The notes: generated from the letters alone by a model not told the origin. A stretch of 64,000 bases of DNA from an uncultured Gemmatimonadaceae bacterium (GCA_964574295.1 CAZNLY010000003.1:56881-120880), one strand, 5' to 3'. Positions 19,370 to 56,737 are shown, counted from the stretch's first letter. A program made the numbers and translations.

Positions 19370-19375
19370 CTCGAC

Positions 19376-21484: not shown

Positions 21485-21508
21485 GGCGCCGCAGCCCGGG
21501 CCGCCCCC

Positions 21509-22552
21509 ATGGGCGGCCTGGCCCGCCGAGGGCCTATGCGCGTCAGCGGCACCCGCCTCCTGCATTCCGCGATCCGCCTGAGCGACGTGGCCTTTCCCGC
21601 GTCGGAAACGCTCCTCGCGCGCACCCGCCTCATCTATGTCCACCTCGACAACCTGCTCTCGTTCGCCAAGCGCGACCGGGACGGCAAGGTGGATGCCTAC
21701 TTCCTGGGCTATCTCCCCGACGAGTTGATCCTCCTCTTCTTCCAGAAGGGGGAGCTGGTCACAGCGGCGGGAATCGGGTCGGGGCAGCGGGGCATCCTGC
21801 CGGTGGCCGAGGCGGTCCGCCGCCTCAAGGCGGATCCCGAACGGGGCGAGGCCGCCTACTGTGCCGCCCCGCTGGCCCAGCTGGAGCTCATGTACCAGGC
21901 GTGCGCCGCCCCGGCCGAGCCCTATGTGGTGGACTCGAAGCACCCGGAGCTCGTGTTCCCGCGGGTGGCGGAAGAGGGGCTGACGGGCGCGCTGGAAATC
22001 ATCTCCAACGGGCGCGTCAACTACCTCCAGTTCGACCACGGGAAGTTCACCGGCGGCTTTTTCTACGCCAAGCCGGACACGGTATCGCTCCCCGCCTATA
22101 TCGAGGGGCTGTTCCATCCCGGCGTCGACGGCGCCCAGCCCGCGCTCGCGGTGAGCGGCGTCCCGCCCGCCGCCGGCCTCCCGGTGCAGGCCCTCGCCTC
22201 GCAGGTGCGGATGTACCGCGAGCTCTTCCTGCGGATTTCCCACGCCATCGAGAGCGAACTGCCGGAGGAGGGTCTCCGCCGGGTGGATCGTGTCACCGCG
22301 CGGATCCTCCCCGTCCGCCCCGCCCTCGAGGCACTGCTGCCGTCGAACGGCGGCGATCCGTCGATGGTGGCCACCGCGGCCGCCGAGCTCACCAGCGTGC
22401 TCGCGGCGTGGACCGGGGCACTGCTCACCGAGGTGGAGGTGGTGTCGCCCGGCGCGGGTCCCCGGATCCTGCAGGAAGCCACCCGCGAGCAGCGCCATCT
22501 CCTGCAGGCTGCCGGCTTCTATGCCCACTTTCCCTGGAGCCTCTCCTGGTAG
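21509..22552 (+). CDS. Hypothetical cytoplasmic protein (no family recognised)
   Basis: 347-aa ORF with no TM helix or signal peptide and coding-like GC3. An alternative start lies at 21536 (MRVSGTRLL). It follows trxA after a 24-nt gap. Confidence 0.5.
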   Translation: MGGLARRGPMRVSGTRLLHSAIRLSDVAFPASETLLARTRLIYVHLDNLLSFAKRDRDGKVDAYFLGYLPDELILLFFQKGELVTAAGIGSGQRGILPVAEAVRRLKADPERGEAAYCAAPLAQLELMYQACAAPAEPYVVDSKHPELVFPRVAEEGLTGALEIISNGRVNYLQFDHGKFTGGFFYAKPDTVSLPAYIEGLFHPGVDGAQPALAVSGVPPAAGLPVQALASQVRMYRELFLRISHAIESELPEEGLRRVDRVTARILPVRPALEALLPSNGGDPSMVATAAAELTSVLAAWTGALLTEVEVVSPGAGPRILQEATREQRHLLQAAGFYAHFPWSLSW

Positions 22553-23382
22553 CGCCGGGCACCCTGTACGTCGTCGCCACGCCGCTCGGTCACCTGGGAG
22601 ACCTCACCGCCCGCGCCGCCGACACGCTCCGCTCCGTCCCCCTGGTGGCCGCCGAGGACACCCGGCGCACGCGCATCCTCCTCGACCACCTCGGCGCGCA
22701 TCCCCGCCTGCTGGCGGTGCACGAGCACTCCGAGGCGGAACAGGCGCCGAGCGTGGTGGCGCACCTCGCAGAGGGGCGTTCCGTGGCGCTGGTGACCGAC
22801 GCCGGCACCCCGGGGGTGAGCGATCCGGGCGCACGCCTCGTCCGCGCGGTGCGCGACGCCGGCCTGCCTGTCGTCCCCGTTCCCGGCCCGTCCGCCGTGG
22901 CCACCGCGCTCTCCGCCTCGGGCGTCCCGGCGGACCGGTACCTCTTCCTCGGCTTCCCGGCCCGGAAAGGGAAGGAGCGCGCCGCCGACCTCGCGCGGGC
23001 CGCCTCGGAGCGGTGGGCGGTCGTCTTCTATGAGGCGCCGGCCCGCCTGGCGGGCCTGCTCGCCGACCTCGGCGAGGCCTGCGGCCCCGACCGGACCGCG
23101 GTGGTGGCACGCGAGCTGACCAAGGTGCACGAGGAGTTCCGGCGGGGGACGCTCAAGGAGCTCGCGGCCTGGTATGACGCCCACCCGCCCAAGGGGGAGG
23201 TCACGCTTGTCCTCGAGGGGGCGGCGCTGGAGGACCCGGCGCCCGATGCGTCCACGGTCCGCGAGGCGGCGGCCGCCCTTCTCGCCCAGGGGCTCAGCCG
23301 GAAGGACGTGGTGGGCCGGTTGACGGCATCCACCGGTCTTTCCCGTAATGCCGTGTACCGCCTCGTGATGGAGCTGCCGTGA
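22546..23382 (+). CDS. rsmI: 16S rRNA (cytidine1402-2'-O)-methyltransferase. The start is uncertain: CTG at 22546 or 22534, or GTG at 22408.
   Basis: 'GTLYVVATPLGHLGDLTARAADTLRSVPLVAAEDTRRTR.LL.H......L...HEH.E......V...L..G.SVALV.DAGTPGVSDPG..LV.A....G..V.P.PG.SA...AL..SG'. The nearest in-frame canonical start upstream of this conserved N-terminus is the GTG at 22408, 145 nt inside the previous gene. Confidence 0.8.
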   Translation: MVAPGTLYVVATPLGHLGDLTARAADTLRSVPLVAAEDTRRTRILLDHLGAHPRLLAVHEHSEAEQAPSVVAHLAEGRSVALVTDAGTPGVSDPGARLVRAVRDAGLPVVPVPGPSAVATALSASGVPADRYLFLGFPARKGKERAADLARAASERWAVVFYEAPARLAGLLADLGEACGPDRTAVVARELTKVHEEFRRGTLKELAAWYDAHPPKGEVTLVLEGAALEDPAPDASTVREAAAALLAQGLSRKDVVGRLTASTGLSRNAVYRLVMELP

Positions 23383-24044
23383 TCCGACCCGCCGTCGCCC
23401 TTGCCCTGGCCCTCGCGGCGGCAGCGCCCCTGCCGGCCCAGGACGAGGGGGTCACGATCGGGCGCCTCCACTACGACGGCGGGGGCGACTGGTACGCCAA
23501 CCCATCGAGCCTGCCCAACCTGCTGGCCGCGGTGCGCCGGGAAACGAGCATCCGGACCACAGAGCGCGAGGTGGTGGTGAGCCTGGCAGAGCCGTCGCTC
23601 TGGGAGGTGCCGTACCTGTACATGACGGGCCACGGCAACGTGCGCTTCAGCGACGACGACCTGGTGACCCTCCGCCGCTTCCTGCTGCGGGGCGGCTTCC
23701 TCCACGCCGACGACAACTACGGGATGGACAGTTCGCTGCGGCGGGAGCTCGCACGGCTCTTTCCTGACCGGCCCCTCGAGGAAGTGCCGCTGGACCATCC
23801 GATCTATCACATGGTCTACGACTTTCCGCGGGGCGTGCCCAAGATCCACGAGCACGACGGCAAGCCGGCGCAGGGATTCGGCATCTTCCTCGACGGCCGG
23901 CTCGCCGTCTACTACACCTACCAGTCCGACCTCGGCGACGGCTGGGAAGACCCCGACGTGCATCGCGACCCTCCCGAGATCCGGGAGCAGGCGCTTCGCA
24001 TGGGCGTGAACCTCGTCGCCTACGCGGTGGCGACCGGCCAGTGA
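23379..24044 (+). CDS. Secreted DUF4159-type protein (class-I glutamine-amidotransferase-like fold family)
   Basis: Signal peptide MIRPAVALALALAAAAPLPAQ. 'LHYDGGGDWYANPSSLPNLL...VPYLYMTGHGNVRFSDDDLVTLRRFLLRGGFLHADDNYG' matches my memory of DUF4159. The GTG overlaps the rsmI stop (GTGA). Confidence 0.7.
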   Translation: MIRPAVALALALAAAAPLPAQDEGVTIGRLHYDGGGDWYANPSSLPNLLAAVRRETSIRTTEREVVVSLAEPSLWEVPYLYMTGHGNVRFSDDDLVTLRRFLLRGGFLHADDNYGMDSSLRRELARLFPDRPLEEVPLDHPIYHMVYDFPRGVPKIHEHDGKPAQGFGIFLDGRLAVYYTYQSDLGDGWEDPDVHRDPPEIREQALRMGVNLVAYAVATGQ

Positions 24045-27000
24045 CCGCCGCCACCCGCACCGCCCTCGATGGGCTGGCCCGGCCGCGGGGCCGGATGGCC
24101 TCTGCCATCGGAGGATTGCTGGCGTTGGCGGTGGCGCTGACGGCACTCGCCGCCGCGGCGTGGCTTGCGCGCGGGGGCGTCGTGCGGACCCCGTGGTGGG
24201 TGCCGGCGGCGTGGGTCGCCGCGGTGGCCGGTGCGTCGGCTTGCGCGCTCCTGGCCATCCGGCGGGTGCGGGCCGCCGGGCCGACCGCGATTGCGCTGAG
24301 GCTCGAACGTGAGGGGCACTGGCGGCGCGGTGCCCTCACCGGCGTCCTGGACACCCCCGCCGCTGGCGTCAGCGGCGACCTGCTCACCCTGGCCGATCAG
24401 GCGCGCGCCGACGAGCTGGCGGTCCGCGGGGCCGTGGCCCTGGCGCCATTCGACGCCGCCCTCCGCACCGAGCGGCGCCTGGGCATCGGCCTCCTCCTCC
24501 TGGCCGTGCTGGGCCTCCTCGGCGCGGGGCCGACCCGCGCCCCGGTGCACCTCCTCTGGCACCCGGCCGGCGCGCTGGCCCTCGCCCTCGGCGACGTGTC
24601 CATCGACGCCAGCGCGCGGGCGGTGGACCGCGGCGCCGGGGTGACGCTCACCATCCGCGCTCCGGGCCGGACCCACGCGACGCTCTGGCGACGGGAGCCG
24701 GGGGAGGGGTGGGGCCCCGTGGAGCTGGCGCTCGACGCCTCGGGCGAGGCGCGACTCACCACCGATGGCCTCACGAGCGATCTCTTCGCGCACGCCACGA
24801 GCGGCGGGCGGTCGTCGGACACCCTGCGCATCGAGGTGCGCGTGCCGCCGTTCCTCGGCGCGGCAGCCGTCACCGCCCACTACCCGGCCTATCTCGGATT
24901 GGAGGAGGAGCCGGTGGCCTTCGGCCCCGATTCGCTGCTCCTTCCGGAAGGGACCCGGCTCTCGGTCGAGGGCGAGGCCACCGCCGACTTGGCGTCCGCC
25001 GAATGGGCGGGGCCGCGCGACACCGTCCGGCTCGAGGTCGATGGCCACAGCTTCCGCGGGCGCATCGTTCCCGACGCCTCGGGTGCCTACCGGCTCATCG
25101 TGACGACGACCTCGGGCGTGGCGCTCGGGGGCGACGACGCGGCGTTGGCCATCCGTATGGTGCCCGATGCCGCCCCCGAGGTGGCAATCCCGGTCCCGGG
25201 CGAGGACACCCTCGCGCCACTCGGTCTCCGCATTCCGCTCGTGGTGGACGCCCGGGATGACCACGGGCTCACCCACGTCACGGTGGTGAGCCGTCGCATC
25301 AGCCGCCTCGGCGTGGCCGACGCGGAGCGGCGCGAGGTGGTGGCGCTCCCGGAGGGGGCGCCCGATCGCGTGATGGCGCCGTTCCTCCTCGACCTGGAGC
25401 AGCGTGCGCTCCTGCCGGGCGACACCGTGCGCTACTACGCCGAGGCGGTGGACAACGCCCCGCGGCCGCGCGTGGCGCGCTCCCGCGACTACGTGCTGCG
25501 GTTGCCGACGATGGCGGAGGTGCGCGCGGCGGAACGCGCGGCGAGCGAGTCGGTGGGGCAGCAGCTCGACAGCCTGGCCGCGGAAAGCCGGCGCCTGCAG
25601 CGGCAGACGGAAGATCTCTCGCGCGAGGCGCAGCGGCCGGGGGAGGGCGCGGCCACGCGCGGGGAGCAGTCCCTCTCCTTCGAGGCGGCCAAGCGGGCCG
25701 AGGCGGTGGCCCGGCAGCAGGAGGCGCTGATCCGGCAGGCGGAGGAGACGCGCGAGGCGATCGACGCCCTGCAGCGGGCCGCGGAGCAGTCGGGGATGGA
25801 CGACCCCGAGGTGCAGCGCCGGTTGCAGGAGGTGGCGGAGCAACTCGACCGCGCGCTGACGCCCGAGCTTCGGGAGCAGCTGCAGGCGCTGCAGGAGGCC
25901 CTGCGCGACCTCGACGCCGCGCGCACCCAGCAGGCGCTGGAGCAGCTGGCGGAGGCGCAGCGGCAGCTCAAGGAGGCGCTCGAGCGCAGCCAGACCCTCT
26001 TCGACCGCGCCGCACTGGAGGGGGACCTCGCGAATCTTGCCGCCGAGGCGCGGGACCTCGCGCAGGCGCAGCAGGAATGGGCCGACCAGATGAGCCGGAT
26101 GGATTCCGCACGGGCCGCCGCCGAGCAGGCGGCGCTGGCGGAGCGGGCCGACTCGCTGGCGGCGGGGCTCTACCAGGCGGCCTCCGAGGCGGCTGCCAAG
26201 CAGTCGGAGGCGGCGGGAGAGCGGATGGAGGCCACCGCGGCCCAGGCCGATTCCGCGGCCGGCGCGATGGACGCCGCGGCAAAGGCGGCGAGCCAGGGGC
26301 AGCGGCAGGCCGCCCGCCAGCAGGCACAGAAAGCGGCGGGCCAGCTCTCCAAGGTGAGCCAGGAGCTCGACCAGCAACGGGAATCGATGCAGGAGGAGTG
26401 GCGCCAGGAGGTGGTGGACGCCATCGACCGGATGATGGCGGAGACGAGTCGCCTGGCCGACCGCCAGCTCGCCATCACCGAGGCGCTCCGGTCGGGTGAG
26501 GCACCCGCCAATTTCCGGGCCCAGCAGGCAGCGGTGGAAGCCGGCGTCGAGCAACTCACCGAACAATATCGGAAGGCGGCGGGCGAGCACGCGCTGGTAC
26601 CGCCGCAGATCGGGACGACGCTGGAGGCGGCGCGGCGCCAGATGGCCGACGCGCGCGACGCACTCTCGACGGCGGCACCGGGAGAGCGGACGGCGGTGGT
26701 CCGCGCCGGCGAGGCGGTGGACGCCCTCAACGCCGCCGCCTACCAGATGCTGCGGGCCCGCGGCGACGTGCAGGGGGCCGGCTCCGGCTCGGGGCTGCAG
26801 GAAGCCATGGAGCGGATGGCCCAGCTGGCGCAGCAGCAGGGGGCGGTGGGCCAGCAGGGCGCTCAGCTCCTCCCGATGCTCGGCGCGGGCGGCGCCCAGG
26901 AGCAGCTTCGACAGCTCTCCGCCCAGCAGCGCGCGCTGGCCGACCAGCTCGAGCGGCTCCGCGCCGAGACCCAGTCCGCCGGCACGGCGGAACTGGCCGA

Positions 27001-27322
27001 GGAGGCGCGGGACCTCGCCCGGCAACTCGAGGCGGGGCGCCTCGACCGGCGGACCGTCGAGCGGCAGGAGCAGCTCTACCGTCGAATGCTGGATGCCGGG
27101 CGCACGCTGCAGGGTGAGGAGCGCGACGACCAGAAGGAGCGGCAGAGCACGACCGCGACGGGAGACAGCGTCCGCCTCCCCCCGGCGCTCCGCGCCCGGC
27201 TCGACGACGGTCGCGGCGCGCTCCGCATTCCGACCTGGGAGCAGCTCCAGCAACTGTCTCCCGAGGATCGCCGCCTGGTGCTCGAGTACTTCCGGCGGCT
27301 GGCGGAGGGAGCGCCCCGATGA
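24041..27322 (+). CDS. Membrane-anchored 1093-aa protein, DUF4175-like, with a beta-rich region and a roughly 550-aa Q/A/E/R-rich coiled coil
   Basis: About three N-terminal hydrophobic helices (residues ~20-45, 50-72, ~145-165). A beta-rich segment spans 200-480, coiled-coil-type sequence spans 490-1040, and the C-terminus is 'LVLEYFRRLAEG'. GTGA overlap upstream and ATGA overlap downstream. Confidence 0.6.
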   Translation: MTAATRTALDGLARPRGRMASAIGGLLALAVALTALAAAAWLARGGVVRTPWWVPAAWVAAVAGASACALLAIRRVRAAGPTAIALRLEREGHWRRGALTGVLDTPAAGVSGDLLTLADQARADELAVRGAVALAPFDAALRTERRLGIGLLLLAVLGLLGAGPTRAPVHLLWHPAGALALALGDVSIDASARAVDRGAGVTLTIRAPGRTHATLWRREPGEGWGPVELALDASGEARLTTDGLTSDLFAHATSGGRSSDTLRIEVRVPPFLGAAAVTAHYPAYLGLEEEPVAFGPDSLLLPEGTRLSVEGEATADLASAEWAGPRDTVRLEVDGHSFRGRIVPDASGAYRLIVTTTSGVALGGDDAALAIRMVPDAAPEVAIPVPGEDTLAPLGLRIPLVVDARDDHGLTHVTVVSRRISRLGVADAERREVVALPEGAPDRVMAPFLLDLEQRALLPGDTVRYYAEAVDNAPRPRVARSRDYVLRLPTMAEVRAAERAASESVGQQLDSLAAESRRLQRQTEDLSREAQRPGEGAATRGEQSLSFEAAKRAEAVARQQEALIRQAEETREAIDALQRAAEQSGMDDPEVQRRLQEVAEQLDRALTPELREQLQALQEALRDLDAARTQQALEQLAEAQRQLKEALERSQTLFDRAALEGDLANLAAEARDLAQAQQEWADQMSRMDSARAAAEQAALAERADSLAAGLYQAASEAAAKQSEAAGERMEATAAQADSAAGAMDAAAKAASQGQRQAARQQAQKAAGQLSKVSQELDQQRESMQEEWRQEVVDAIDRMMAETSRLADRQLAITEALRSGEAPANFRAQQAAVEAGVEQLTEQYRKAAGEHALVPPQIGTTLEAARRQMADARDALSTAAPGERTAVVRAGEAVDALNAAAYQMLRARGDVQGAGSGSGLQEAMERMAQLAQQQGAVGQQGAQLLPMLGAGGAQEQLRQLSAQQRALADQLERLRAETQSAGTAELAEEARDLARQLEAGRLDRRTVERQEQLYRRMLDAGRTLQGEERDDQKERQSTTATGDSVRLPPALRARLDDGRGALRIPTWEQLQQLSPEDRRLVLEYFRRLAEGAPR

Positions 27323-29043
27323 GGCGGGCCGCGGCGGTGCTGATGGCCCTGGCGGCGTGGGCCCTGCCGCTTCGCGCCCAGGGCGACGCAATGACCCGCG
27401 CTTTCGAGCAGGAGCGACGCGGCAACTACGCCGGCGCCGCGGACGCCTACCTCGAGGCGCTCCGCGCGAACCCCGGCAACCTCTCGGCGCTCCTCGGGCT
27501 CGAGCGCGTGCTGGTGCCGCTCCGGCGCGAGTCCGAACTGGCCGGCCCCGCCAGCGCCCTCCTGGCCAGCGACCCCGCCAATACGGTGGCGTATTCCGTG
27601 GCGATGCGGGGATGGGCGGCGGCGCGTCGGCCGGACAGCATCGCCGCGGTGGCGCTCCGCTGGGCCAGGGTGGAGCCGGGCAGCGAGACGCCCTACCGCG
27701 ATTGGGGCAACACCCTGCTCGGACTGCAGGATCCGGCCGGGGCCAGGAAGGCATATCTCACGGGTCGCGAGGCGCTGGGCGAGCCGGCGGCGCTGGCCGG
27801 CGAGCTGGCGCTGTTGGCGGGCGCCACCGGGGACTGGCGCACCGCGGCGCGGGAATGGGGCGCGGCCATCGAGCGCTACCCGGGCTACCGGCTCACGGCG
27901 CGCAACGCCCTGCTGCGTGCCCCGGAGGCGAGCCGCGACGACATCCTGCGTGAGCTGTCGCACCAGTCGCCGGCGGGGCGGCGGCTCGCGGCGGAGCTCG
28001 AGGTGCAATGGGGCGATCCAGCCGCGGGGTGGACGCTGCTTGCGGCCAACCTCCCGGCCTCCAACCCCGAGGCCCTCGAGGCGCTGCGCCAGTTCCTCGA
28101 CGCCGCGCGCGGCGGGGAGGGGCCCGAGGCGGCGCGCGTCCGCGGCAACGCCCTCGAACAGGTTGCCGCGCGAACCTCCGGCCAGGCGGCGTCCCGGACC
28201 CGGCTCGAGGCGGCCCGCGCCTACGCCGACGGGGGGGACCCGGCCGCCGCGCGCCGGATGCTGGGCCAGCTCGCGTCCGACACCACCGCCCCTCCCGACA
28301 TGGCCGCCGGCGCCACCGCGACGCTCGTGACGGTGCTCCTCCGCGAGGGCGACGTCGAGGAGGCGGCCCGGCAGCTGGCCCGCTACCGCTCGGCGCTCGG
28401 GGAGGACAACGCGGAGCGGCTCACGCTGCAGGTGGCCGACGGCTACCTCCGGCAGGGGCAGCTGGCGGCGGCCGAGGCCCTCCTGGACTCGGCGGGCAGC
28501 GTCGAGGCCATTGCGCGCATCGGGCGGATCCGGCTCTATCAGGGGGACCTGGCCGGCGCCGCCAAGGCGCTGGGCGCGGCGGGCCCCTTTGCGGGGAGCC
28601 GCGAGGAGGCCACCCAGCGGACGGGGCTGCTCGCGCTCATCCAGCCGATTGCGCAGGACTCGCTGCCGGCGCTCGGCGCCGCGCTCCTGGCGCTCGAGCG
28701 GGGCGACAGCGCCACGGCGGTGCAGGGGCTGGTGGCGGTGGCCGCCACCCTCCCCCCGAACGGAGGCGGCGCCGGCATCCTGCTCCTGGCCGGCCGGATC
28801 GAGGCCGCGCGCGGCCAGGCCGACGCGGCGGAGCGGCTCCTCCGCTCGGCGGCGGACTCGACCGCGCCGGCCACGGCCCCGAGCGCGGAGCTGGAACTGG
28901 CGCGCCTCCTGTTGGCGCTGGGCCGCACCGCCGACGCCGAACGCGAGCTCGAGCACCTGATCCTGGCCTATCCCGGCAGCGCGGTCGTGCCCGAGGCCCG
29001 GCGGCTCCTTGACACGGCGCGTGGCGGAGTGCCGGAGAGCTGA
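27319..29043 (+). CDS. Secreted TPR-like repeat protein
   Basis: Signal peptide MRRAAAVLMALAAWALPLRAQG. The protein is Ala/Leu-rich with repeating helical-pair motifs ('G.Y..A...Y..AL...P.N', 'LARLLLALGRTADAERELEHLILAYPGS'). Confidence 0.6.
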   Translation: MRRAAAVLMALAAWALPLRAQGDAMTRAFEQERRGNYAGAADAYLEALRANPGNLSALLGLERVLVPLRRESELAGPASALLASDPANTVAYSVAMRGWAAARRPDSIAAVALRWARVEPGSETPYRDWGNTLLGLQDPAGARKAYLTGREALGEPAALAGELALLAGATGDWRTAAREWGAAIERYPGYRLTARNALLRAPEASRDDILRELSHQSPAGRRLAAELEVQWGDPAAGWTLLAANLPASNPEALEALRQFLDAARGGEGPEAARVRGNALEQVAARTSGQAASRTRLEAARAYADGGDPAAARRMLGQLASDTTAPPDMAAGATATLVTVLLREGDVEEAARQLARYRSALGEDNAERLTLQVADGYLRQGQLAAAEALLDSAGSVEAIARIGRIRLYQGDLAGAAKALGAAGPFAGSREEATQRTGLLALIQPIAQDSLPALGAALLALERGDSATAVQGLVAVAATLPPNGGGAGILLLAGRIEAARGQADAAERLLRSAADSTAPATAPSAELELARLLLALGRTADAERELEHLILAYPGSAVVPEARRLLDTARGGVPES

Positions 29044-30341
29044 TGCGCCGCCGCGACTTCCTCCGCGGGGCGGCGTCGGCCGCCGCAGGCCTGGCGTTCG
29101 CGTCCCCTCGCGCCGGCCTCGCCCGGCGCGCCCCATATGTCCTGGTGCCGATGGACGACGCGCAGGCCGACCACCTCAAGGCGTACGGCCTCGTCTTCCG
29201 ACTGCTGGAGCGGGGCGGCCGGGCGGAATGGTTCCTCAACTACCGGAACGGGGCCTTCCTCCTCCCCTCGGATCCGATCACCGAGCGCGACGCGGCGCTG
29301 GCCGGGGTGACCGTCGAGCCGCTGGGCGAGGCCAGCCTGATCGGCATCCGGGCCGACATCGACGCCGGCAACATGGAGGCGGTGCCGCTGGAGAAGGCCC
29401 CGCGCGTGGCGGTGTACGTGCCGCCCAACGCCGCGCCGTGGGACGACGCGGTGACGATGGCCCTCCGCTACGCGGGCATCACCTTCGCCAAGGTGTGGGA
29501 TCCGGAGGTGCTGCAGCCGGGCGGCGCCGGCCTGGCCCGGTTCGACTGGCTGCACCTGCATCACGAGGACTTCACCGGGCAGTACTCCAAGTTCTACATC
29601 ACCTACGCCGGCGCCCCCTGGCTGGCCGAGATGGTGGAGCAGAACACCGCGATGGCCCGCACCCTCGGGTTCCCCAATGTCCCGGCGGAGAAGCGCGCCG
29701 TGGCGGAGGCCATCGCCGCCTACGTGGCCCAGGGCGGGTTCCTCTTCGCGATGTGCGCCGCCACCGAGACGCTGGACCTCGCGCTCGCGTCGGCCGGGGT
29801 GGACATCGCGGCGGCCTACGCCGACCAGACGCCGATGGACCCGAATGCCAGCGCCCGGATGGACTGGAGCCGCGCCCTCGCCTTCCAGGGGGCGCGCCTC
29901 GAGCTGAGCCCGACCGTGTCCCAGTTCTCCGACATCGACGGCCACGAGGTGAACGCCCTCGGCCGCCGCCAGCAGCTCGGCAGCTTCCGGCTCTTTGCCT
30001 TCAGCGCCAAGATCGACCCGGTGGCCACCATGCTGGTGCAGAACCACCGGGAGTCGATTCCCGACTTCTACGGCCTCACCACCTCGTTCCGGAAGACCCG
30101 GATCAAGCCGGGGGTGACGATCCTGGCCGACGAGCCCGGGGCGCCCTGGGCCAAGTACCTCCACGGGGAGCATGGCAAGGGGACGTGGACGTTCTACGGC
30201 GGGCACGACCCCGAGGACCCGCAGCACCAGATCGGCGACGCCCCGACCGACCTGTCGCTCCATCCGCACTCCCCGGGCTACCGGCTGATCCTCAACAACG
30301 TCCTCTTTCCGGCCGCGAAGAAGAAGGAACTGAAGACATGA
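29043..30341 (+). CDS. Tat-exported hypothetical protein, possibly GATase1/ThuA-like
   Basis: Twin-arginine signal 'MRRRDFLRGAASAAAGLAFA'. 'FDWLHLHHEDFTGQ...' and 'GGFLFAMCAATETLD' echo the 'YLYMTGHG...GGFLHADD' pattern of the DUF4159 gene. 432 aa. TGATG 1-nt overlap upstream. Confidence 0.55.
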   Translation: MRRRDFLRGAASAAAGLAFASPRAGLARRAPYVLVPMDDAQADHLKAYGLVFRLLERGGRAEWFLNYRNGAFLLPSDPITERDAALAGVTVEPLGEASLIGIRADIDAGNMEAVPLEKAPRVAVYVPPNAAPWDDAVTMALRYAGITFAKVWDPEVLQPGGAGLARFDWLHLHHEDFTGQYSKFYITYAGAPWLAEMVEQNTAMARTLGFPNVPAEKRAVAEAIAAYVAQGGFLFAMCAATETLDLALASAGVDIAAAYADQTPMDPNASARMDWSRALAFQGARLELSPTVSQFSDIDGHEVNALGRRQQLGSFRLFAFSAKIDPVATMLVQNHRESIPDFYGLTTSFRKTRIKPGVTILADEPGAPWAKYLHGEHGKGTWTFYGGHDPEDPQHQIGDAPTDLSLHPHSPGYRLILNNVLFPAAKKKELKT

Positions 30342-32845
30342 GCGGGGAGCGCCTGGCGCCGGAGGTCCGCGCGCGGCTGGCCGCCGAGATCCGCGCCGCC
30401 GGCGGGCGGGAGGTGTCATTCGTGGCCGACATTGACGGCGAGGGGGTCGTCGTGGCGGCGCGGGCGGTGGCGCGCGGTACCGTGCACATGGTGCTGGCCC
30501 TGCCGGGAGTGGCGCAACGCGGACAGATGCTCCTCCACAACCACCCGAGCGGCACCCTCGAGCCCTCCGACGCCGACCTGGCGGTGGCGGCGCGGCTCCA
30601 CGACGGCGGGGTGGGCTTCGGCATCGTGGACAACGCCGGGGAGCGGCTCTACGTGGTGGTGGAGGTGCCCCGGGCGCCAAGCATCCGGCGGCTGGATCCG
30701 TACGCGGTGGTGGAGGCCCTGGGCGAGCACGGTCCCGTGGCGCGTGTCCTCGGTCAGTATGAGGACCGCCAGGCGCAGCGCGACATGGCGGCGTTCATTG
30801 CCGATGGGTACAACGACGGCGGGGTCCAGGTCCTCGAGGCGGGCACCGGGGTGGGGAAGTCGTTTGCCTACCTCGTTCCGGCGCTGCAGTGGGCGCGCGC
30901 CAACGGCGAGCGGACCGTGGTCTCGACCAATACCATCAACCTCCAGGAACAACTGGTCGGCAAGGACCTGCCGCTCCTGCGCGAGGCGCTGGCCGACGGA
31001 GACTGGCAGCCGCGCTTTGCCCTCCTCAAGGGGTGGCGGAACTACGTCTGCCTGGCGCGGCTGCAGCACGCGGGGCACGGGCAGCAGAATCTCCTCGAGC
31101 CGGAGCGGCAGGACGAGCTGGTGTCGCTCGCGGAGTGGGCGGCCCGCACCGGCGATGGCACCCTGAGCGACCTTGCCGTTCCGCCGACGGCCGAGGTGTG
31201 GGACGAGATCTGCGCCGAGGCCGACCTCTGCACTCGGGTGCAGTGCGCGCACTTCGACCAGTGCTTCCTGTTCCGAGCGCGCCGCCGGGCGGCCGAAGCG
31301 GACGTGGTGGTGGTGAACCACCACCTGCTCGCGGCCGACCTCGCGGTGCGGCAGGCGTCCGACAACTGGGAGGAGGCGGCGGTCCTCCCGCCCTACAAGC
31401 GGCTCATCCTCGACGAGGCCCATCACCTCGAGGACGTGGCGGCCTCGCACCTCGGCACACAGGTCACGAGCCGGGGGGTGCAGCGGCTGCTGGGCCGGCT
31501 GGAGCGGAACCGCCGGGGGCTGGTGCCCGCCTTGAGCGCGGAGCTTGCAGGGCGAACCGACCTGCTGAGCAAGGCGAGCCTCGACCTGGTTCGGGAGCGC
31601 CTGGCGCCGGCGGTGGGCGACGCTCGTCGCGCCGCGGAGCAGCTCTTCCTCCGGCTCCACGGACTGGCGGAGGACGGCCACGGCGGCCAGCGGCGGCTCA
31701 CGGATGAGTTCGCCGAGGATCCGGCGTGGAGCGAGGGGCTCCGCGCCGAGCTCGATGCGCTGCTGGCCAGTTTCGACCTCATCAAGACGCACGTGGAGAC
31801 GGTGGCCGACCGACTGGCACAGGTCGAATCGACGGAGCGGGGCGACCAGCTCCTGCAGGAGATGCGCGCGGTGGTCCGGCGGCTCGCGACCACCTCCGAC
31901 GGGCTCAACCGCACCCTGCGGCCGGGGCAGGGGGGCGAGGCCACGGTGCGCTGGATCGAGCGCTCCGGCGCCAGGCGCCAGCACACGCAGCTGGCGGCGG
32001 TGCCGCTCGACCTGGCGCCCGTCCTCCGGCAGCTGCTGTTCGAGCGGGTGGAGACGGTGGTGCTCACCAGCGCCACCCTCGCCGCCGGCGGTGAGTTCGA
32101 CTTCCTCGAGCGCCGGCTCGGCCTCGCGGTGCCCCCGAGCCCGGTCACCACCCGGGAAATCTTCCCCTCGCCCTTCGACTACCCCTCGCAGTGCCTCTTC
32201 GGCATCCCTGACGACTTCCCCGACCCGCGGGAGGACGAAGCGGCGCACGACGCCGCGCTGGCCCAGGCGGTCACCGACCTTGCCCACGCCGGCGACGGGG
32301 GGCTGTTTGTGCTCTTTACCAGCCACGCCGCATTGCGCCGTGCCGCCGCCCAGCTACGGATGATGCTCGACCCGCGCTGGCCGCTGATGGTGCAGGGAGA
32401 GGGCAGCCGGGACGCGCTCCTCCGCCGGTTCCGCGAGGCCGGCAACGCCATCCTCCTCGGCACCGACTCCTTCTGGGAGGGGGTGGATGTTCCCGGCAAG
32501 GCGCTGCGCGGGCTCGTCCTCTGCAAGCTGCCGTTCAAGGTGCCGAGCGAGCCGATCACGGCCGCACGGCTGGAACGCCTGGCCGAGGCGGGGGAGGACG
32601 GGTTCATGGGGTACCTGCTCCCGCACGCCGCGCTCAAGCTCAAGCAGGGGTTCGGCCGTCTCATCCGCACCGCCACCGATGTGGGGGTGGTCTTGCTGCT
32701 CGACCGGCGCGTGCTCACCAAGCGCTACGGGCCGCTGGTTCTGGCGGGCCTGCCGCGGGCGGAGCGTGTGACCGGCCGGTGGGGCGAGATCCGCATCAAG
32801 TGCGAGGACTTCTTTGCCCGCCATGGGCTGGGGGTGCTGGAGTGA
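30338..32845 (+). CDS. dinG: DinG/XPD-family Fe-S ATP-dependent DNA helicase with an N-terminal RadC-like JAB/MPN domain
   Basis: 835 codons from the ATG at 30338 (ATGA overlap). 'LLHNHPSGTLEPSDADL' is the JAMM/RadC motif. 'EAGTGVGKSFAY' is Walker A. A Cys cluster 'YVCLARL...ICAEADLCTRVQCAHFDQC' is present. 'LILDEAHHLED' is the DEAH box. C-terminal helicase motifs are 'LLGTDSFWEGVDVPG' and 'QG.GRLIRT..D.G'. Confidence 0.8.
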   Translation: MSGERLAPEVRARLAAEIRAAGGREVSFVADIDGEGVVVAARAVARGTVHMVLALPGVAQRGQMLLHNHPSGTLEPSDADLAVAARLHDGGVGFGIVDNAGERLYVVVEVPRAPSIRRLDPYAVVEALGEHGPVARVLGQYEDRQAQRDMAAFIADGYNDGGVQVLEAGTGVGKSFAYLVPALQWARANGERTVVSTNTINLQEQLVGKDLPLLREALADGDWQPRFALLKGWRNYVCLARLQHAGHGQQNLLEPERQDELVSLAEWAARTGDGTLSDLAVPPTAEVWDEICAEADLCTRVQCAHFDQCFLFRARRRAAEADVVVVNHHLLAADLAVRQASDNWEEAAVLPPYKRLILDEAHHLEDVAASHLGTQVTSRGVQRLLGRLERNRRGLVPALSAELAGRTDLLSKASLDLVRERLAPAVGDARRAAEQLFLRLHGLAEDGHGGQRRLTDEFAEDPAWSEGLRAELDALLASFDLIKTHVETVADRLAQVESTERGDQLLQEMRAVVRRLATTSDGLNRTLRPGQGGEATVRWIERSGARRQHTQLAAVPLDLAPVLRQLLFERVETVVLTSATLAAGGEFDFLERRLGLAVPPSPVTTREIFPSPFDYPSQCLFGIPDDFPDPREDEAAHDAALAQAVTDLAHAGDGGLFVLFTSHAALRRAAAQLRMMLDPRWPLMVQGEGSRDALLRRFREAGNAILLGTDSFWEGVDVPGKALRGLVLCKLPFKVPSEPITAARLERLAEAGEDGFMGYLLPHAALKLKQGFGRLIRTATDVGVVLLLDRRVLTKRYGPLVLAGLPRAERVTGRWGEIRIKCEDFFARHGLGVLE

Positions 32846-33468: not shown

Positions 33469-34661
33469 TCTCTCCCAGCAAGCGCCTCGGCACCCTCCCC
33501 GGCTATCCCCTCGCCGAGTTGCCCGGCATCAAGCGGCGCCTGATGGCGGAGGGGAAGGACATCATCGACCTCGGCGCGGGCGACAACGACACGCCGCCGC
33601 CGCCACTCGCGCTCGAGGCGATGCGGAAGGCGCTCGAGAATCCCGCCAACAGCAAGTACGGGTTCCAGCAGGGGCACCCCGCGTTCCGCCGCGCCGCCAG
33701 CGACTACGTCCACCGCCGGTTCGGGCACCGGTTCGATCCCGCCACCGAGCTCGCACCGCTCATCGGCTCCAAGGAGGGGATCGCCCACCTGCCGTTTGCC
33801 TTCCTGAATGCGGGCGACGTGGCCATCGTTCCCGAGCCGGGCTACCAGGCCTACCTCGGCGGCACGGTGCTGGCCGACGGGGTGCCCCACATCGCGCCGC
33901 TGCGCGCCGAGCGGGGGTTCCTGGTCGACCTCGAGGCCATTCCGGACTCGGTCCTCCGGCGCACCCGGCTCCTCTTCCTCAACTACCCGAACAACCCGAC
34001 GGCGGCGGTGGCCCCGCTCGACTACCTCGAACGCGTGGTGGCCGCCTGCCGGAAGCACGACATCCTCCTGGCCTACGACAACGCCTATTGCGACATCACC
34101 TTCGACGGGTATCGGGCGCCGAGCATCTTCGACGTGCCGGGGGCGGCGGAGGTGGCCATCGAGTTCTTCTCGCTCTCCAAGAGCTTCTCGATGACGGGGT
34201 GGCGGATCGGGTTCGCGGTGGGGCGGCCCCAGCTCGTGGCGCCGCTGACGCAGGTCAAGACGTACACCGATACGGGGCCGTTCCTGGCGGTGCAGGAGGC
34301 GGGCGCCGCCGTGCTCGACCGGGCGGAGGAGTTCACCGCGCCGATCTGCGCCGAGATCGCGCGGCGGCGCGATGCGGCGGTGCCGGCGCTCCGGGCGGCG
34401 GGATTCCAGGTCGAGTCGCCGCGCGCGGCGATGTACCTCTGGGTGGCGCTCCCGGCCGGCGTGGCGTCCAAGCCGTTCGCCATGCATGCGCTCCAGGAGG
34501 AGGGCGCGCTCGTCCTGCCGGGGAGCGCCTTCGGGCCGGCGGGTGAGGGCTACTTCCGGATCGCGCTCACGGTGCCTGCCAGCCGACTCGTCGAGGCGGT
34601 GGCGCGGCTCTCGCGCGCGCTCGCCACGCTGCCGCATGCCGGGGGCGTCGGCGCCGCCTGA
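33465..34661 (+). CDS. Class I/II pyridoxal-phosphate aminotransferase (LL-diaminopimelate-aminotransferase-like subgroup)
   Basis: 'DIIDLGAGDNDTPPP...LIGSKEGIAHLPFAFLNAGD...VPEPGYQAY...LNYPNNPT.A.A.......V..A.......AYDNAY..I.FDGY...S......A..V.IEF.SLSKSF.MTGWRIGFAVG'. ATGA overlap with the FAH gene. Confidence 0.85.
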   Translation: MISPSKRLGTLPGYPLAELPGIKRRLMAEGKDIIDLGAGDNDTPPPPLALEAMRKALENPANSKYGFQQGHPAFRRAASDYVHRRFGHRFDPATELAPLIGSKEGIAHLPFAFLNAGDVAIVPEPGYQAYLGGTVLADGVPHIAPLRAERGFLVDLEAIPDSVLRRTRLLFLNYPNNPTAAVAPLDYLERVVAACRKHDILLAYDNAYCDITFDGYRAPSIFDVPGAAEVAIEFFSLSKSFSMTGWRIGFAVGRPQLVAPLTQVKTYTDTGPFLAVQEAGAAVLDRAEEFTAPICAEIARRRDAAVPALRAAGFQVESPRAAMYLWVALPAGVASKPFAMHALQEEGALVLPGSAFGPAGEGYFRIALTVPASRLVEAVARLSRALATLPHAGGVGAA

Positions 34662-54439: not shown

Positions 54440-55005
54440 CGAGCAAGACCGACGCCCCGATCCTCGCGACACTTCCCGCCGTGTCCACCGGACGGCGCCT
54501 GATCACCGTGGCACTCGGCGCGCTCCTCGTGGCGCTGGCCGCGCAGGTCCGCGTCCCGCTCCCCTTCACTCCGGTGCCGGCGACGCTGCAGGATCTCGCG
54601 GTCCTGGTGGTGGGCGGGGTGTTCGGTGCCGCGGCCGGCCTCGCCGCGCTGGTCACCTACCTGGCGCTCGGGCTCGCGGGGTTCCCGGTCTTCTCCGGCG
54701 GGGCGTCGGGACTCGCGTGGCTGATGGGGCCCACCGGCGGATACCTGCTCGCCTTTCCGGTTGCCGCCTTCGTGGCCGGGCGCGTTGCGGCGCAGGGCGG
54801 GCTCCCGCGCGCGCTGGCCGGTGCCTTCCTCGGGATGGTGATCATCCACCTGGGCGGCGTGGCGCAGCTCGCGGTGCTCACCGGCAGCGCCGCCTCGGCG
54901 GTCCAGCTCGGGACGGTGCCGTTCCTGGCGGCGGGACTCGTCAAGGTGGTCCTGGCGGGGGCGCTCATCGCCGGCCTCGCGCCGCGGGTCGCCCGCTGGC
55001 GCTGA
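54436..55005 (+). CDS. bioY: Biotin transporter BioY
   Basis: '[27 protein letters not shown]...[32 protein letters not shown]' is the BioY signature. The GTG overlaps the thiolase stop (GTGA). 189 aa. Confidence 0.85.

Positions 55006-55892: not shown

Positions 55893-56737
<845 letters not shown>

What the first reader, a model, noticed from the sequence alone, without database searches (positions are those of the whole stretch)
23379..30341. Four-gene, fully extracytoplasmic module: DUF4159 / giant DUF4175-like coiled-coil anchor / TPR / Tat-exported GATase1-like protein
Four consecutive genes are joined by GTGA (24041), ATGA (27319) and TGATG (29043) junctions. Every product is predicted to leave the cytoplasm:
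- A Sec-signal DUF4159-type protein.
- A 1093-aa protein with about three N-terminal TM helices, a beta-rich region and a roughly 550-residue Q/A/E/R coiled coil ending in 'YFRRLAEG'.
- A Sec-signal TPR-like protein.
- A protein with a textbook twin-arginine signal (RRRDFLRG).

The first and fourth proteins share a '...(T/H)GH/HH..F....GGFL(H/F)A' pattern, which suggests two paralogous GATase1/ThuA-like modules. From memory, DUF4159 proteins usually occur with MoxR-AAA+/DUF58/VWA 'Bat/aerotolerance'-type loci. None of those partners is in this window. No member has a known biochemical function. The composition suggests an envelope-spanning scaffold, with a very long coiled-coil ruler plus folded periplasmic modules, one of them exported already folded and possibly loaded with a cofactor. 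The module is also translationally chained to rsmI upstream and to the JAB-DinG gene downstream.
Basis: partly seen in the sequence, partly recalled or inferred. Interest (0 to 1): 0.58.

Follow-up and report, generated by a model that had tools for sequence, protein, structure and literature searches.

The report
Conserved four-gene envelope operon, FCB bacteria
Four tightly packed genes in this Gemmatimonadales genome form a real operon of unknown function for proteins exported from the cytoplasm; the same gene order recurs in several related phyla, and the fourth protein looks like an exported cysteine hydrolase from a family nobody has described.

Summary
Four ORFs (23379-30341, + strand) overlap by 4, 4 and 1 nt.

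- p1 is a clear DUF4159 protein (229 bits).
- p2 has three TM helices and a roughly 925-aa periplasmic part. It misses the Pfam DUF4175 threshold, but its syntenic orthologues reach 60 bits and close homologues are named DUF4175.
- p3 is a TPR protein with a Sec leader.
- p4 has no Pfam family. Bacteroidota homologues are mislabelled 'asparagine synthetase B'.

A confident AF2 model of p4 (pLDDT 89.9) has a class-I glutamine-amidotransferase fold. Its only cysteine (C238) sits at the nucleophile elbow, and H388-x-x-E391 follows the next strand.

The order p1-p2-p3-p4 holds in 29 of 34 Gemmatimonadota loci. It also occurs in Eisenbacteria, Latescibacterota, Marinimicrobia and Krumholzibacteriota. 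In Bacteroidota p4 mostly stands alone, and some copies carry a T9SS tail.

The twin-arginine leader is limited to the window's subclade; elsewhere the leader is Sec-type. That weakens the 'exported folded with a cofactor' idea. p1/p4 paralogy is not supported by sequence: they share only the superfamily. No MoxR, DUF58 or VWA gene is in the window.

Best reading: an inner-membrane-anchored periplasmic complex carrying a thiol amidohydrolase. The mechanism is inferred, not shown.

The parts
22549..23382 (+). Context, not part of the module: rsmI-like methyltransferase. Its stop overlaps the p1 start (GTGA).
   Evidence: Translation. TP_methylase Pfam hit on the identical gene. Syntenic across Gemmatimonadota only.
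23379..24044 (+). p1: secreted DUF4159 protein, 221 aa. It belongs to the GATase1-like clan but has Asp (D111/D112) where a nucleophile Cys would sit.
   Evidence: PF13709 at 228.6 bits, E = 6.6e-68. The family profile hits PDB 4I66 at E = 3e-22. The Pfam clan assignment is stated in PMC4702930. Across phyla these residues are invariant: H85, D111, D112, H157, H159, D160, E190, D191.
23379..23441 (+). Sec-type signal peptide of p1 (residues 1-21, ...PLPAQ|DEG; cleavage site approximate).
   Evidence: The N-terminal 12-mer has a hydropathy of 2.50. Orthologues all have a hydrophobic leader before the conserved LTI(A/G)RLxYxGGGDWY. No SignalP run was possible.
24041..27322 (+). p2: DUF4175-family inner-membrane protein, 1093 aa.
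   Evidence: No Pfam or NCBIfam hit for the window protein. Syntenic orthologues (tblastn E = 1e-32 to 1e-58) hit PF13779 at up to 60.6 bits. Close homologues are named 'DUF4175 family protein'.
24104..24541 (+). p2 membrane anchor: TM1 about residues 22-44, TM2 about 55-73, an Arg-rich loop at 74-146 (12 K+R, predicted cytoplasmic), and TM3 about 147-167.
   Evidence: Kyte-Doolittle windows and loop charge counts. The topology is inferred from the positive-inside rule.
24548..25510 (+). p2 periplasmic beta-rich region (residues about 170-490), probably Ig-like domains.
   Evidence: Gly/Pro/Thr/Val-rich and almost free of Gln. Only weak profile hits to PKD/Ig domains: KIAA0319L E = 0.0012, titin E = 0.5. 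It holds the invariant residues G198, P282, G304, D376, D406, D407 and D471.
25508..27319 (+). p2 periplasmic helical, coiled-coil-prone region (residues about 490-1093). It includes a 213-residue unbroken stretch (609-821) and a conserved C-terminal motif ...RQE.L..RMLDAGR...EYFRRL.
   Evidence: Composition and heptad score of 0.55 against 0.46 +/- 0.018 in shuffles. Hits to designed antiparallel coiled coils and MCP helical bundles. Conserved C-terminal columns.
27319..29043 (+). p3: secreted TPR protein, 574 aa. Leader MRRAAAVLMALAAWALPLRAQ|GD.
   Evidence: TPR_14 at 38.8 bits, TPR_16 at 36.1, TPR_19 at 34.5, all above their cut-offs. The leader 12-mer has a hydropathy of 2.28. A TPR gene of 610-680 aa lies directly upstream of p4 in 19 of 31 non-Gemmatimonadota loci.
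29043..30341 (+). p4: exported protein of an unnamed family with no Pfam model, 432 aa. It has a small N-terminal alpha/beta domain (about 31-118) followed by a class-I GATase-like domain (about 119-425).
   Evidence: No Pfam or NCBIfam domain. More than 8000 homologous clusters. At least 50% identity across FCB phyla. AF2 model at pLDDT 89.9, pTM 0.88. Foldseek hits to 2gk3, 3fij, 7d53, 1t0b and GH42 middle domains, E = 4e-6 to 1e-3.
29043..29132 (+). p4 twin-arginine-type leader (M-RRRDFLRG-AASAAAGLAFA...; residues 1 to about 30).
   Evidence: The sequence matches the RRxFL motif. Pfam TAT_signal scores only 15.1 bits against a 22.7 cut-off. R3, R4 and F6 are invariant in 30 Gemmatimonadales homologues. 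The h-region is weakly hydrophobic at 1.47. The motif is confined to loci L001-L023.
29553..29570 (+). p4 His/acid-rich motif H171-L-H173-H174-E175-D176 (DWLHLHHEDFTGQ), at the end of the third strand of the GATase-like domain.
   Evidence: 85-95% conserved among the 50%-identity cluster representatives. Its position comes from the model's secondary structure.
29754..29756 (+). Codon of C238, the only Cys in p4 and the candidate nucleophile, at the strand 233-237 to helix 239-249 elbow.
   Evidence: Codon TGC. Single Cys. Conserved in 73 of 82 representatives. Secondary structure.
30204..30215 (+). Codons of H388-D-P-E391 (GGHDPED), the candidate His/Glu of the triad, directly after strand 380-385.
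   Evidence: H is conserved in 54/59 representatives, P in 57/57 and E in 47/56. The layout is analogous to the 'HPE' of class-I GATases (established knowledge). It was not verified by 3D superposition.
30338..32845 (+). Context, not part of the module: JAB/RadC-DinG fusion helicase. Its start overlaps the p4 stop (ATGA).
   Evidence: Translation. RadC and Helicase_C_2 Pfam hits on the identical gene. It follows p4 in Gemmatimonadota only, and about 2 kb is inserted in L001 and L013.

Best explanation
This is a genuine, vertically conserved envelope operon of the FCB superphylum. The four parts are shown by the data:
- p1 is a secreted DUF4159 protein. It has a GATase1-like fold with an invariant His/Asp cluster and no thiol.
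- p2 is a DUF4175-family protein held in the inner membrane by three helices, with about 925 residues in the periplasm (an Ig-like beta region followed by about 600 helical residues).
- p3 is a secreted TPR protein.
- p4 is an exported member of an undescribed family with a class-I glutamine-amidotransferase fold.

The mechanism is inferred. p2 is the membrane-anchored scaffold. p3 is the adaptor for p4; this is the tightest gene pair. p4 is a periplasmic thiol amidohydrolase that uses C238, H388 and E391 on an amide bond of an envelope component, for example a peptidoglycan-peptide or gamma-glutamyl-type linkage. p1 is a second, non-thiol GATase1-like partner, either substrate-binding or metal-dependent. 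The module works without ATP in the periplasm. It is related to, but here separate from, the MoxR-associated DUF4159/DUF4175 loci.
For: - Domain assignments.
- Export signals and topology. Six of 29 aligned p4 homologues (alignment A3) carry a T9SS sorting domain, so the family acts outside the cytoplasm.
- Synteny: all four genes lie in the same order in 29 of 34 Gemmatimonadota loci. The same order occurs in Eisenbacteria, Latescibacterota, Marinimicrobia, Krumholzibacteriota and FCB-group MAGs. The TPR-p4 pair occurs in 19 of 31 non-Gemmatimonadota loci.
- p4 fold: AF2 model at pLDDT 89.9. Foldseek hits include triad-bearing GATases (SpuA 7d53, lin1909 3fij, TrpG 1i1q, CTP synthase) as well as triad-less ones.
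- Candidate triad: the single Cys sits at the strand-helix elbow and H-x-x-E follows the next strand. Conservation is 89%, 92% and 84% among the 50%-identity representatives.
- Purifying selection: p4 is at least 50% identical across phyla. p1 has about 37 invariant columns across phyla.
Against: - There are no biochemical or genetic data for any of the four families; the literature searches found none.
- The triad geometry was not checked in 3D, because no coordinates or alignments were available.
- The best Foldseek hit (STM3548, 2gk3) and the ThuA and GH42M hits are non-catalytic GATase1-like domains.
- The conserved HxHHED motif together with Cys and His could instead be a metal site.
- p4 stands alone in 7 of 7 Bacteroidota loci, so it does not need p1-p3. 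One Latescibacterota genome tolerates a mobile island between p3 and p4.
- No evidence of physical interaction could be obtained.
- The substrate is a guess.
Confidence: 0.5

Rival explanations
1. The module is a non-catalytic scaffold or metal-handling system of the Bat/MoxR type. p1 and p4 are degenerate GATase1-like binding domains, and the Cys/His/Asp cluster binds a metal. The complex is assembled or remodelled by a MoxR AAA+ ATPase with DUF58/VWA partners encoded elsewhere in the genome.
For: - A MoxR (AAA_3, 209 bits) gene follows p4 directly in Latescibacterota L071 and L076, and lies 1.5 kb downstream in L055.
- The top fold hit and several others are non-enzymatic GATase1-like domains.
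- p1 and p4 both have His/Asp-rich invariant motifs.
- The window's clade uses a Tat-type leader, which is typical for cofactor-containing proteins.
- From memory only: DUF4159 and DUF4175 genes in Alphaproteobacteria and PVC bacteria sit next to MoxR-DUF58 genes.
Against: - MoxR is adjacent in only three of 80 loci, all from one phylum, and is not followed by DUF58 or VWA.
- None of these partners is in the 64-kb window.
- Most p4 homologues use Sec leaders or T9SS, which argues against cytoplasmic cofactor loading.
- Myxococcota DUF4159 loci have no MoxR within 10 kb.
- Cys and His sit exactly at the catalytic positions of the fold.
Confidence: 0.25
2. These are two independent units that happen to be neighbours: a DUF4159-DUF4175 pair and a TPR-p4 pair. 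Each has its own function, and ancestral gene order keeps them adjacent.
For: - The TPR-p4 pair occurs without p1-p2 in L059, L064, L067, L068 and L072, and p4 occurs alone in Bacteroidota, Kapabacteria and Cloacimonadota.
- In Myxococcota, DUF4159 pairs with a different large membrane protein (PF07090) and no p4.
- An integrase/RM island splits p3 from p4 in L076.
Against: - The same order p1-p2-p3-p4, with short or overlapping junctions, is kept across at least five phyla whose flanking genes all differ.
- No locus was seen with p1-p2 lacking p4 downstream. This is biased, because the loci were collected through p4.
Confidence: 0.15
3. The adjacency is accidental and comes from genome compaction. 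There is no functional relation among the four genes or with their neighbours.
For: Eleven co-directional genes from 21.1 to 35.5 kb are packed with overlaps, including the clearly unrelated rsmI, JAB-DinG and FAA hydrolase.
Against: The flanks change between phyla while the four genes stay together in order.
Confidence: 0.03
4. p4 is what database names say, an asparagine synthetase B or glutaminase subunit acting in the cytoplasm.
For: NCBI names for the Pedobacter homologues. GATase-like fold.
Against: - No Asn_synthase or GATase_7 domain was found in any of 29 members.
- AsnB uses an Ntn (class II) glutaminase domain, not this fold (established knowledge).
- The family has signal peptides and T9SS tails.
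- There is no synthetase partner gene.
Confidence: 0.01

Closest known systems
Pfam DUF4159 (PF13709); solved example Hoch_4089 of Haliangium ochraceum, PDB 4I66
   Same: p1 matches the model end to end (2-201 of 202, 229 bits). The p1 family profile finds 4I66 at E = 3e-22. Pfam places the family in the GATase1 clan on structural grounds (PMC4702930).
   Different: The FCB-type p1 has invariant GGGDWY, TGHGN, HADD, HEHD and DGWED motifs that Hoch_4089 lacks. Myxococcota DUF4159 genes pair with a PF07090 membrane protein, not with DUF4175/TPR/p4. No function is known for any member.
Pfam DUF4175 (PF13779). From memory, TIGR02302 is the alphaproteobacterial counterpart.
   Same: Same architecture: N-terminal TM helices followed by a long, low-complexity, Gln/Ala-rich extracytoplasmic region. 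Orthologues of p2 hit the model over positions about 190-760.
   Different: The window protein is too divergent to score at all. No TIGR02302 hit was found for any FCB orthologue. In Rhodobacter a TIGR02302 protein belongs to the CenKR envelope regulon (PMC9275681), but its equivalence to p2 was not tested.
Class-I glutamine amidotransferase-like superfamily: triad-bearing members (PuuD/SpuA and peptidase C26 such as lin1909, TrpG, GuaA, PyrG) and non-catalytic members (ThuA, GH42 middle domain, STM3548)
   Same: The p4 model has this fold. A Cys sits at the nucleophile elbow and His-x-x-Glu follows the next strand, as in the catalytic members.
   Different: - Identity is about 11%, and there is no sequence-level hit to any PDB chain or Pfam GATase model.
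- p4 has an extra N-terminal domain and about 100 residues of insertions.
- p4 is exported, whereas the characterised members are cytoplasmic (established knowledge).
- There is no synthase partner.
- A His-rich HxHHED motif replaces the usual GG oxyanion loop.
Bacteroides aerotolerance (Bat) and other MoxR-DUF58-VWA loci
   Same: Both encode envelope-located products of unknown biochemistry and include a TPR protein (like BatC). A MoxR gene follows p4 in Latescibacterota.
   Different: The window and 77 of 80 loci have no MoxR, DUF58, VWA/BatA or BatD gene. The link rests mainly on memory of other phyla.
Periplasmic TPR adaptor plus cell-wall hydrolase pairs (NlpI with MepS/Prc; CpoB with PBP1B) in E. 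coli
   Same: A secreted all-TPR protein is encoded next to, and conserved with, a putative Cys hydrolase. p3 gives weak YbgF/BamD-type TPR hits.
   Different: This is an analogy only. There is no homology beyond the TPR repeats, p3 is not a lipoprotein (it has no Cys), and no interaction or substrate is known.

Membership tests
DUF4159 (PF13709) | Full-length match to the Pfam model above the gathering score (25.9 bits) | tested here: met
   p1 scores 228.6 bits, E = 6.6e-68, over model positions 2-201 of 202. The identical gene carries PF13709 in the precomputed table.
DUF4175 (PF13779) | Match to the Pfam model above the gathering score (27.3 bits) | tested here: not met
   Window p2 has no hit at E <= 0.1. 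However, syntenic orthologues L058, L075, L071 and L060 score 60.6, 60.4, 33.1 and 30.0 bits. Homologues 53-66% identical are named 'DUF4175 family protein'. p2 is therefore filed as a divergent relative by transitivity.
DUF4175 (PF13779) | Architecture: N-terminal TM helices plus a long low-complexity extracytoplasmic region | tested here: met
   Three hydrophobic helices within residues 22-167, then about 925 residues with an A/Q/E/R-rich helical half.
TPR proteins | TPR repeat models above their gathering scores | tested here: met
   p3 hits TPR_14 at 38.8 bits (cut-off 23.5), TPR_16 at 36.1 (32.7), TPR_19 at 34.5 (25) and TPR_21 at 26.5 (25.5).
Tat (twin-arginine) substrates | (S/T)-R-R-x-F-L-K motif followed by a weakly hydrophobic h-region | tested here: inconclusive
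   RRRDFLRG and the AASAAAGLAFA h-region (hydropathy 1.47) fit the pattern. R3, R4 and F6 are invariant in the clade. But Pfam TAT_signal scores 15.1 bits against a 22.7 cut-off, and there is no NCBIfam Tat model hit. No TatP run or experiment was possible.
Tat (twin-arginine) substrates | The Tat leader is a property of the whole protein family, implying a folded or cofactor-bearing cargo | tested here: not met
   Only L001-L023 have the RR motif. L024-L080 have Sec-type leaders ending A-x-A just before LLVPMD. Some members are T9SS cargo.
Class-I glutamine amidotransferase-like superfamily | The characteristic alpha/beta fold | tested here: met
   AF2 model at pLDDT 89.9. Foldseek probability is 1.00 to 2gk3, 3fij, 3soz, 7d53, 1t0b and 2a9v, with E = 4e-6 to 5e-4. 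Weak BPL_N hits occur in 4 of 29 members.
Class-I glutamine amidotransferase-like superfamily | Catalytic Cys at the nucleophile elbow plus His and Glu after the following strand | tested here: inconclusive
   C238 follows strand 233-237 and starts helix 239-249. H388/E391 follow strand 380-385. They are conserved in 89%, 92% and 84% of representatives. Spatial proximity could not be measured.
Class-I glutamine amidotransferase-like superfamily | Glutaminase activity coupled to a synthase domain or subunit | not testable with these tools
   No synthase-like gene is nearby. A periplasmic location makes a coupled amidotransferase unlikely (inference).
Asparagine synthetase B (the database name of p4 homologues) | Ntn glutaminase domain (GATase_7 or GATase_6) plus an Asn_synthase domain | tested here: not met
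   Neither domain appears in p4 or in any of 29 family members. The name appears on WP_115404660.1 and RZL37573.1.
Bat / MoxR-DUF58-VWA systems | MoxR-class AAA+ (AAA_3) gene in the locus | tested here: not met
   tblastn with the L071 MoxR finds nothing in the window. A Pfam survey of about 45 window ORFs finds no AAA_3. MoxR is present next to p4 only in L055, L071 and L076.
Bat / MoxR-DUF58-VWA systems | DUF58 and VWA (BatA/BatB) genes in the locus | tested here: not met
   No DUF58 or VWA hit in the window ORFs or after the MoxR gene in L071. The rest of the genome could not be examined.

The most novel reading that the evidence does not exclude
p4 founds a new family of exported Cys-His-Glu hydrolases on the glutamine-amidotransferase fold. 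The family is at least 50% identical from Gemmatimonadota to Bacteroidota and is hidden under the name 'asparagine synthetase B'. With its TPR partner and the DUF4159/DUF4175 pair it forms a previously unrecognised, ATP-independent envelope-maintenance machine specific to the FCB superphylum. This would give both DUFs their first functional context.
Probability: 0.3. Interest if true: 0.65.

Novelty: new variant of a known kind. Interest (0 to 1): 0.5.

Why it matters
- DUF4159 and DUF4175 are widespread families with no known function. The held literature mentions them only in passing: five papers, none on function.
- The p4 family is larger and better conserved than many named enzyme families. 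It has more than 8000 clusters at 90% identity, is found in at least 598 GTDB species genomes, and is at least 50% identical across phyla. Yet it has no Pfam or NCBIfam model and carries a wrong name.
- Showing that it is an exported thiol hydrolase tied to a fixed set of envelope partners would correct that annotation and define a new branch of the GATase1 superfamily.
- It would also give a testable handle on envelope biology in Gemmatimonadota and other poorly studied FCB phyla. Tractable Bacteroidota such as Pedobacter and Mucilaginibacter carry the p4 gene and could be used for genetics.

Tried and rejected
1. The first AF2 run used 30 close homologues (at least 73% identical) and gave pLDDT 49, which is unusable. 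Adding the 50%-identity representatives fixed it.
3. Profile searches of the p4 family against PDB sequences found nothing meaningful.
4. hhalign of the p1 family against the p4 family aligned 16 columns at 16% probability, so direct paralogy was rejected.
5. The p2 profile against the PDB gave only compositional coiled-coil hits and weak Ig/PKD hits.
6. A search for recurrent neighbours of stand-alone p4 found only housekeeping genes: YjbQ-like, signal peptidase I and MTAP. In Pedobacter the neighbours were rlmH, cyclophilin, an OMP, a porin and lpxK. No new partner emerged.
7. tblastn of p1 against plasmids, meant to reach annotated alphaproteobacterial loci, found only one Corynebacterium resistance plasmid.
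8. DUF4159 loci in Myxococcota were checked for MoxR, and none was found.
9. NCBIfam was checked for a TIGR02302 link to the p2 orthologues, and none was found.
10. Rfam, tRNA and promoter/terminator scans showed nothing inside the module.
11. Literature searches on the Bat/MoxR link and on 'asparagine synthetase B' with T9SS gave nothing relevant.

Full report
**What is in the sequence**

The window has 72% G+C and comes from a Gemmatimonadales bacterium: the closest named homologues are all from that order.
- p1: 23379-24044, 221 aa
- p2: 24041-27322, 1093 aa
- p3: 27319-29043, 574 aa
- p4: 29043-30341, 432 aa

All four show the codon-position G+C pattern of real genes. Each begins at the first possible start codon of its open frame. 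The overlaps GTGA, ATGA and TGATG are therefore not a matter of choice. The same four proteins, residue for residue, are on record from other assemblies.

The gene upstream is an RsmI-type methyltransferase and the gene downstream is a JAB/RadC-DinG fusion helicase. Both overlap the module by 4 nt. However, eleven co-directional genes from 21.1 to 35.5 kb are packed this way, and they include plainly unrelated ones: thioredoxin, FAA hydrolase and an aminotransferase. Overlap by itself therefore says little.

**The four proteins**

- **p1** is an unambiguous DUF4159 protein: PF13709 at 228.6 bits, covering the whole model. It has a hydrophobic Sec-type leader. A profile of p1 and its orthologues finds the structural-genomics entry 4I66 (Hoch_4089) at E = 3e-22. 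Pfam places DUF4159 in the glutamine-amidotransferase-like clan on structural grounds (PMC4702930). The FCB-type p1 proteins share about 37 invariant columns, including TGHGN, GGFLHADD, PKIHEHDG and DGWED. Hoch_4089 lacks these motifs. This is a His/Asp cluster that looks functional.
- **p2** gets no Pfam or NCBIfam hit. Its syntenic orthologues in other phyla (tblastn E = 1e-32 to 1e-58) do hit DUF4175 at up to 60.6 bits against a 27.3-bit cut-off. NCBI and JGI name homologues that are 53-66% identical 'DUF4175 family protein'. It has three hydrophobic helices at about 22-44, 55-73 and 147-167, with an Arg-rich loop between the second and third. By the positive-inside rule this places about 925 residues in the periplasm. 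These comprise a Gly/Pro/Thr-rich, probably Ig-like part up to about residue 490, with only weak PKD/titin hits, and a helical, heptad-biased part. The helical part has a 213-residue unbroken stretch and a conserved C-terminal motif, and several Gly-rich linkers interrupt it.
- **p3** is a TPR protein with a Sec-type leader.
- **p4** has no family in Pfam or NCBIfam.

**The p4 family**

p4 is the most conserved of the four.
- More than 8000 clusters at 90% identity match it.
- A scan of one genome per species found at least 598 species that encode it.
- The encoding species are Gemmatimonadota, Eisenbacteria, Latescibacterota, Krumholzibacteriota, Marinimicrobia, Calditrichota, Cloacimonadota, Kapabacteria and Bacteroidota, which together make up the FCB superphylum. 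Identity to the window protein never falls below 50% among the 80 best loci kept.
- Bacteroidota members are named 'asparagine synthetase B' in NCBI. No asparagine-synthetase domain is present in any of 29 members scanned, so the name is wrong.

A first structure prediction from close homologues failed at pLDDT 49. A second, using an alignment that included the 50%-identity representatives, gave pLDDT 89.9 and pTM 0.88. Foldseek against the PDB returns class-I glutamine-amidotransferase-like domains at probability 1.00:
- non-catalytic members: STM3548, a ThuA-like protein and GH42 middle domains;
- catalytic members: lin1909, SpuA, GMP synthase subunit A, TrpG and CTP synthase.

In the model the protein's single cysteine (C238) lies at the junction of strand 233-237 and helix 239-249. 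This is the nucleophile elbow of the fold. H388-D-P-E391 follows strand 380-385, the place of the 'HPE' motif of the catalytic members (the motif rule is established knowledge). Among the 50%-identity representatives, C238 is kept in 73/82, H388 in 54/59, P390 in 57/57 and E391 in 47/56. I could not measure distances in the model, so the triad is a strong lead, not a result. The family also has a conserved DWLHLHHEDFTGQ motif and an N-terminal PMDxxQxxHLKAYG domain. A metal site is a live alternative.

**Location**

In the window's subclade (loci L001-L023) p4 starts with M-(K/R)-R-R-x-F, followed by a long, weakly hydrophobic leader. This is the twin-arginine pattern, although the Pfam TAT_signal model stays below threshold. 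All other family members, including other Gemmatimonadota, have ordinary Sec leaders that end A-x-A just before the conserved LLVPMD. Six of the 29 aligned members carry a type IX secretion sorting domain.

The family therefore works outside the cytoplasm. The Tat leader is a local switch of export route, not evidence for a cofactor. Neither p1 nor p3 contains any cysteine, so none of the three soluble proteins is a lipoprotein.

**Is the gene set a unit?**

I searched all 80 loci with HMMs built from the four families and tallied the results.
- Among the 34 Gemmatimonadota loci with enough upstream DNA, 29 have p1-p2-p3-p4 in this order. Three more have p1-p2-p4 with no detectable TPR gene.
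- The full set in the same order, with nearly the same protein sizes, is also found in Eisenbacteria, Latescibacterota, Marinimicrobia, Krumholzibacteriota, an 'FCB group' MAG and two unclassified MAGs.
- In these other phyla the flanking genes are entirely different. In L071, for example, they are Mur ligases, DUF4432 and a sigma factor.
- rsmI and JAB-DinG flank the module only within Gemmatimonadota.
- Among the 31 non-Gemmatimonadota loci, the tightest link is TPR-p4 (19 loci), followed by p2 (12) and p1 (10). No other gene recurs.
- In seven of seven Bacteroidota loci p4 has none of the partners directly upstream.
- One Latescibacterota genome has an integrase and restriction-modification island inserted exactly between p3 and p4.

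The module is thus real and old, but it is built from two separable pairs, and p4 can function without the rest.

**Relation to MoxR/Bat loci**

- None of these is in the window. A tblastn with a MoxR query found nothing, and a Pfam survey of about 45 ORFs found only housekeeping genes.
- In Latescibacterota a MoxR (AAA_3) gene does follow p4, but no DUF58 or VWA gene follows it.
- In Myxococcota, DUF4159 genes pair with an 830-890-aa PF07090 (GATase1_like) membrane protein, with no MoxR within 10 kb.

The recurring theme I could document is therefore 'DUF4159 plus a large membrane protein plus a second GATase1-like domain', not MoxR.

**p1 and p4 as paralogues**

Profile-profile comparison aligns only the 16 columns around GGFL(H/F)A, at 16% probability. 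That short alignment puts p1 D112 opposite p4 C238. Both proteins belong to the same fold superfamily: p1 by Pfam clan, p4 by fold search. Nothing closer can be claimed.

**Mechanism**

*Shown:* four extracytoplasmic or membrane products; conserved co-linearity across phyla; a GATase1-like fold for p4 with Cys, His and Glu at the catalytic sequence positions; and strong purifying selection on p1 and p4.

*Inferred:* p2 anchors the system in the inner membrane and extends a long scaffold into the periplasm. p3 is the adaptor for p4, by analogy with periplasmic TPR adaptors of cell-wall enzymes such as NlpI and CpoB. p4 hydrolyses an amide bond of an envelope component through a thiol mechanism. 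p1 provides a second, non-thiol site.

I give this about 0.5 overall. Confidence is much higher for 'conserved envelope module' (about 0.85) and lower for 'p4 is an active hydrolase' (about 0.4). The substrate is a guess.

The main rival, at 0.25, is a non-catalytic or metal-handling scaffold of the Bat/MoxR type. Two independent neighbouring pairs get 0.15. Accidental adjacency and the asparagine-synthetase annotation are essentially excluded.

**Novelty and interest**

The DUFs are catalogued and the fold is known, so this is not a new kind of system. The four-gene architecture and the p4 family are not described in the literature held here, and the catalytic-looking triad in an exported GATase1-fold protein is new.

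I rate it a new variant of a known kind, with interest 0.5. It is a solid, testable 'conserved hypothetical' module rather than a surprise.

Noticed in passing
L084 (NZ_CP015623.1, Corynebacterium crudilactis plasmid pCRULAC1) 11953-13140: A stand-alone DUF4159 gene 49% identical to p1 sits next to a dihydrofolate reductase gene. Both lie inside a multi-resistance region full of IS26, Tn3 and aminoglycoside and sul2 genes. This looks like a captured chromosomal fragment from an FCB-type bacterium, possibly marking the origin of that dfr gene.
   Followed up: partly
L076 1-9800 versus L071: Two Latescibacterota genomes are 92-94% identical downstream of p4 but differ upstream. L076 carries an integrase, an Eco57I-type RM methylase and a specificity-domain gene inserted exactly at the p3/p4 junction.
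   Followed up: partly
window 29043-29132 and loci L001-L080: The export route of p4 switches within one phylum. Twin-arginine leaders occur in L001-L023, and Sec-type leaders occur in the remaining Gemmatimonadota and in all other phyla. This is a clean natural example of a Sec-to-Tat (or Tat-to-Sec) change on a highly conserved mature protein.
   Followed up: yes
window 30338-32845 (+): A JAB/RadC-like domain is fused to a DinG-type helicase (835 aa). It follows p4 in Gemmatimonadota loci at 44-86% identity. The fusion itself was not examined.
   Followed up: no
window 21485-22552 (+): This 338-355-aa protein has no Pfam hit and lies between thioredoxin and rsmI. It holds the same position in several Gemmatimonadota loci (L001, L016-L020, L025, L027, L030, L037) but not outside the phylum.
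   Followed up: partly
L085 10001-14670 and L086 10001-14511 (Myxococcota): DUF4159 (about 270 aa) is followed by an 830-890-aa membrane protein with a PF07090 GATase1_like domain and a conserved protein of about 395 aa with no Pfam hit (MLALDSLV...). This is a different conserved DUF4159 module with no similarity to p2, p3 or p4.
   Followed up: partly
window 45326-47524 (-): A SelA (selenocysteine synthase) domain occupies residues 281-714 of a 732-codon open frame. Only tRNA-Gln and two tRNA-Ser genes were found in the window, and no tRNA-Sec. The length of the N-terminal part and the true start were not checked.
   Followed up: no
window 17750-19375 (-), 53734-56836 (-), 61271-63292 (+), 34249-35451 (+): Several long open frames with coding-like G+C3 have no Pfam hit at E <= 1e-4. 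Some may be wrong-frame shadows in this 72% G+C DNA, and others may be real orphan genes.
   Followed up: no
p4 C-terminus, window 30300-30338: The last residues, ...NNVLFPAAKKKELKT, are almost invariant across phyla: a basic tail ending in K-T. In T9SS-tailed homologues the sorting domain follows this point. The role of the tail is unknown.
   Followed up: no
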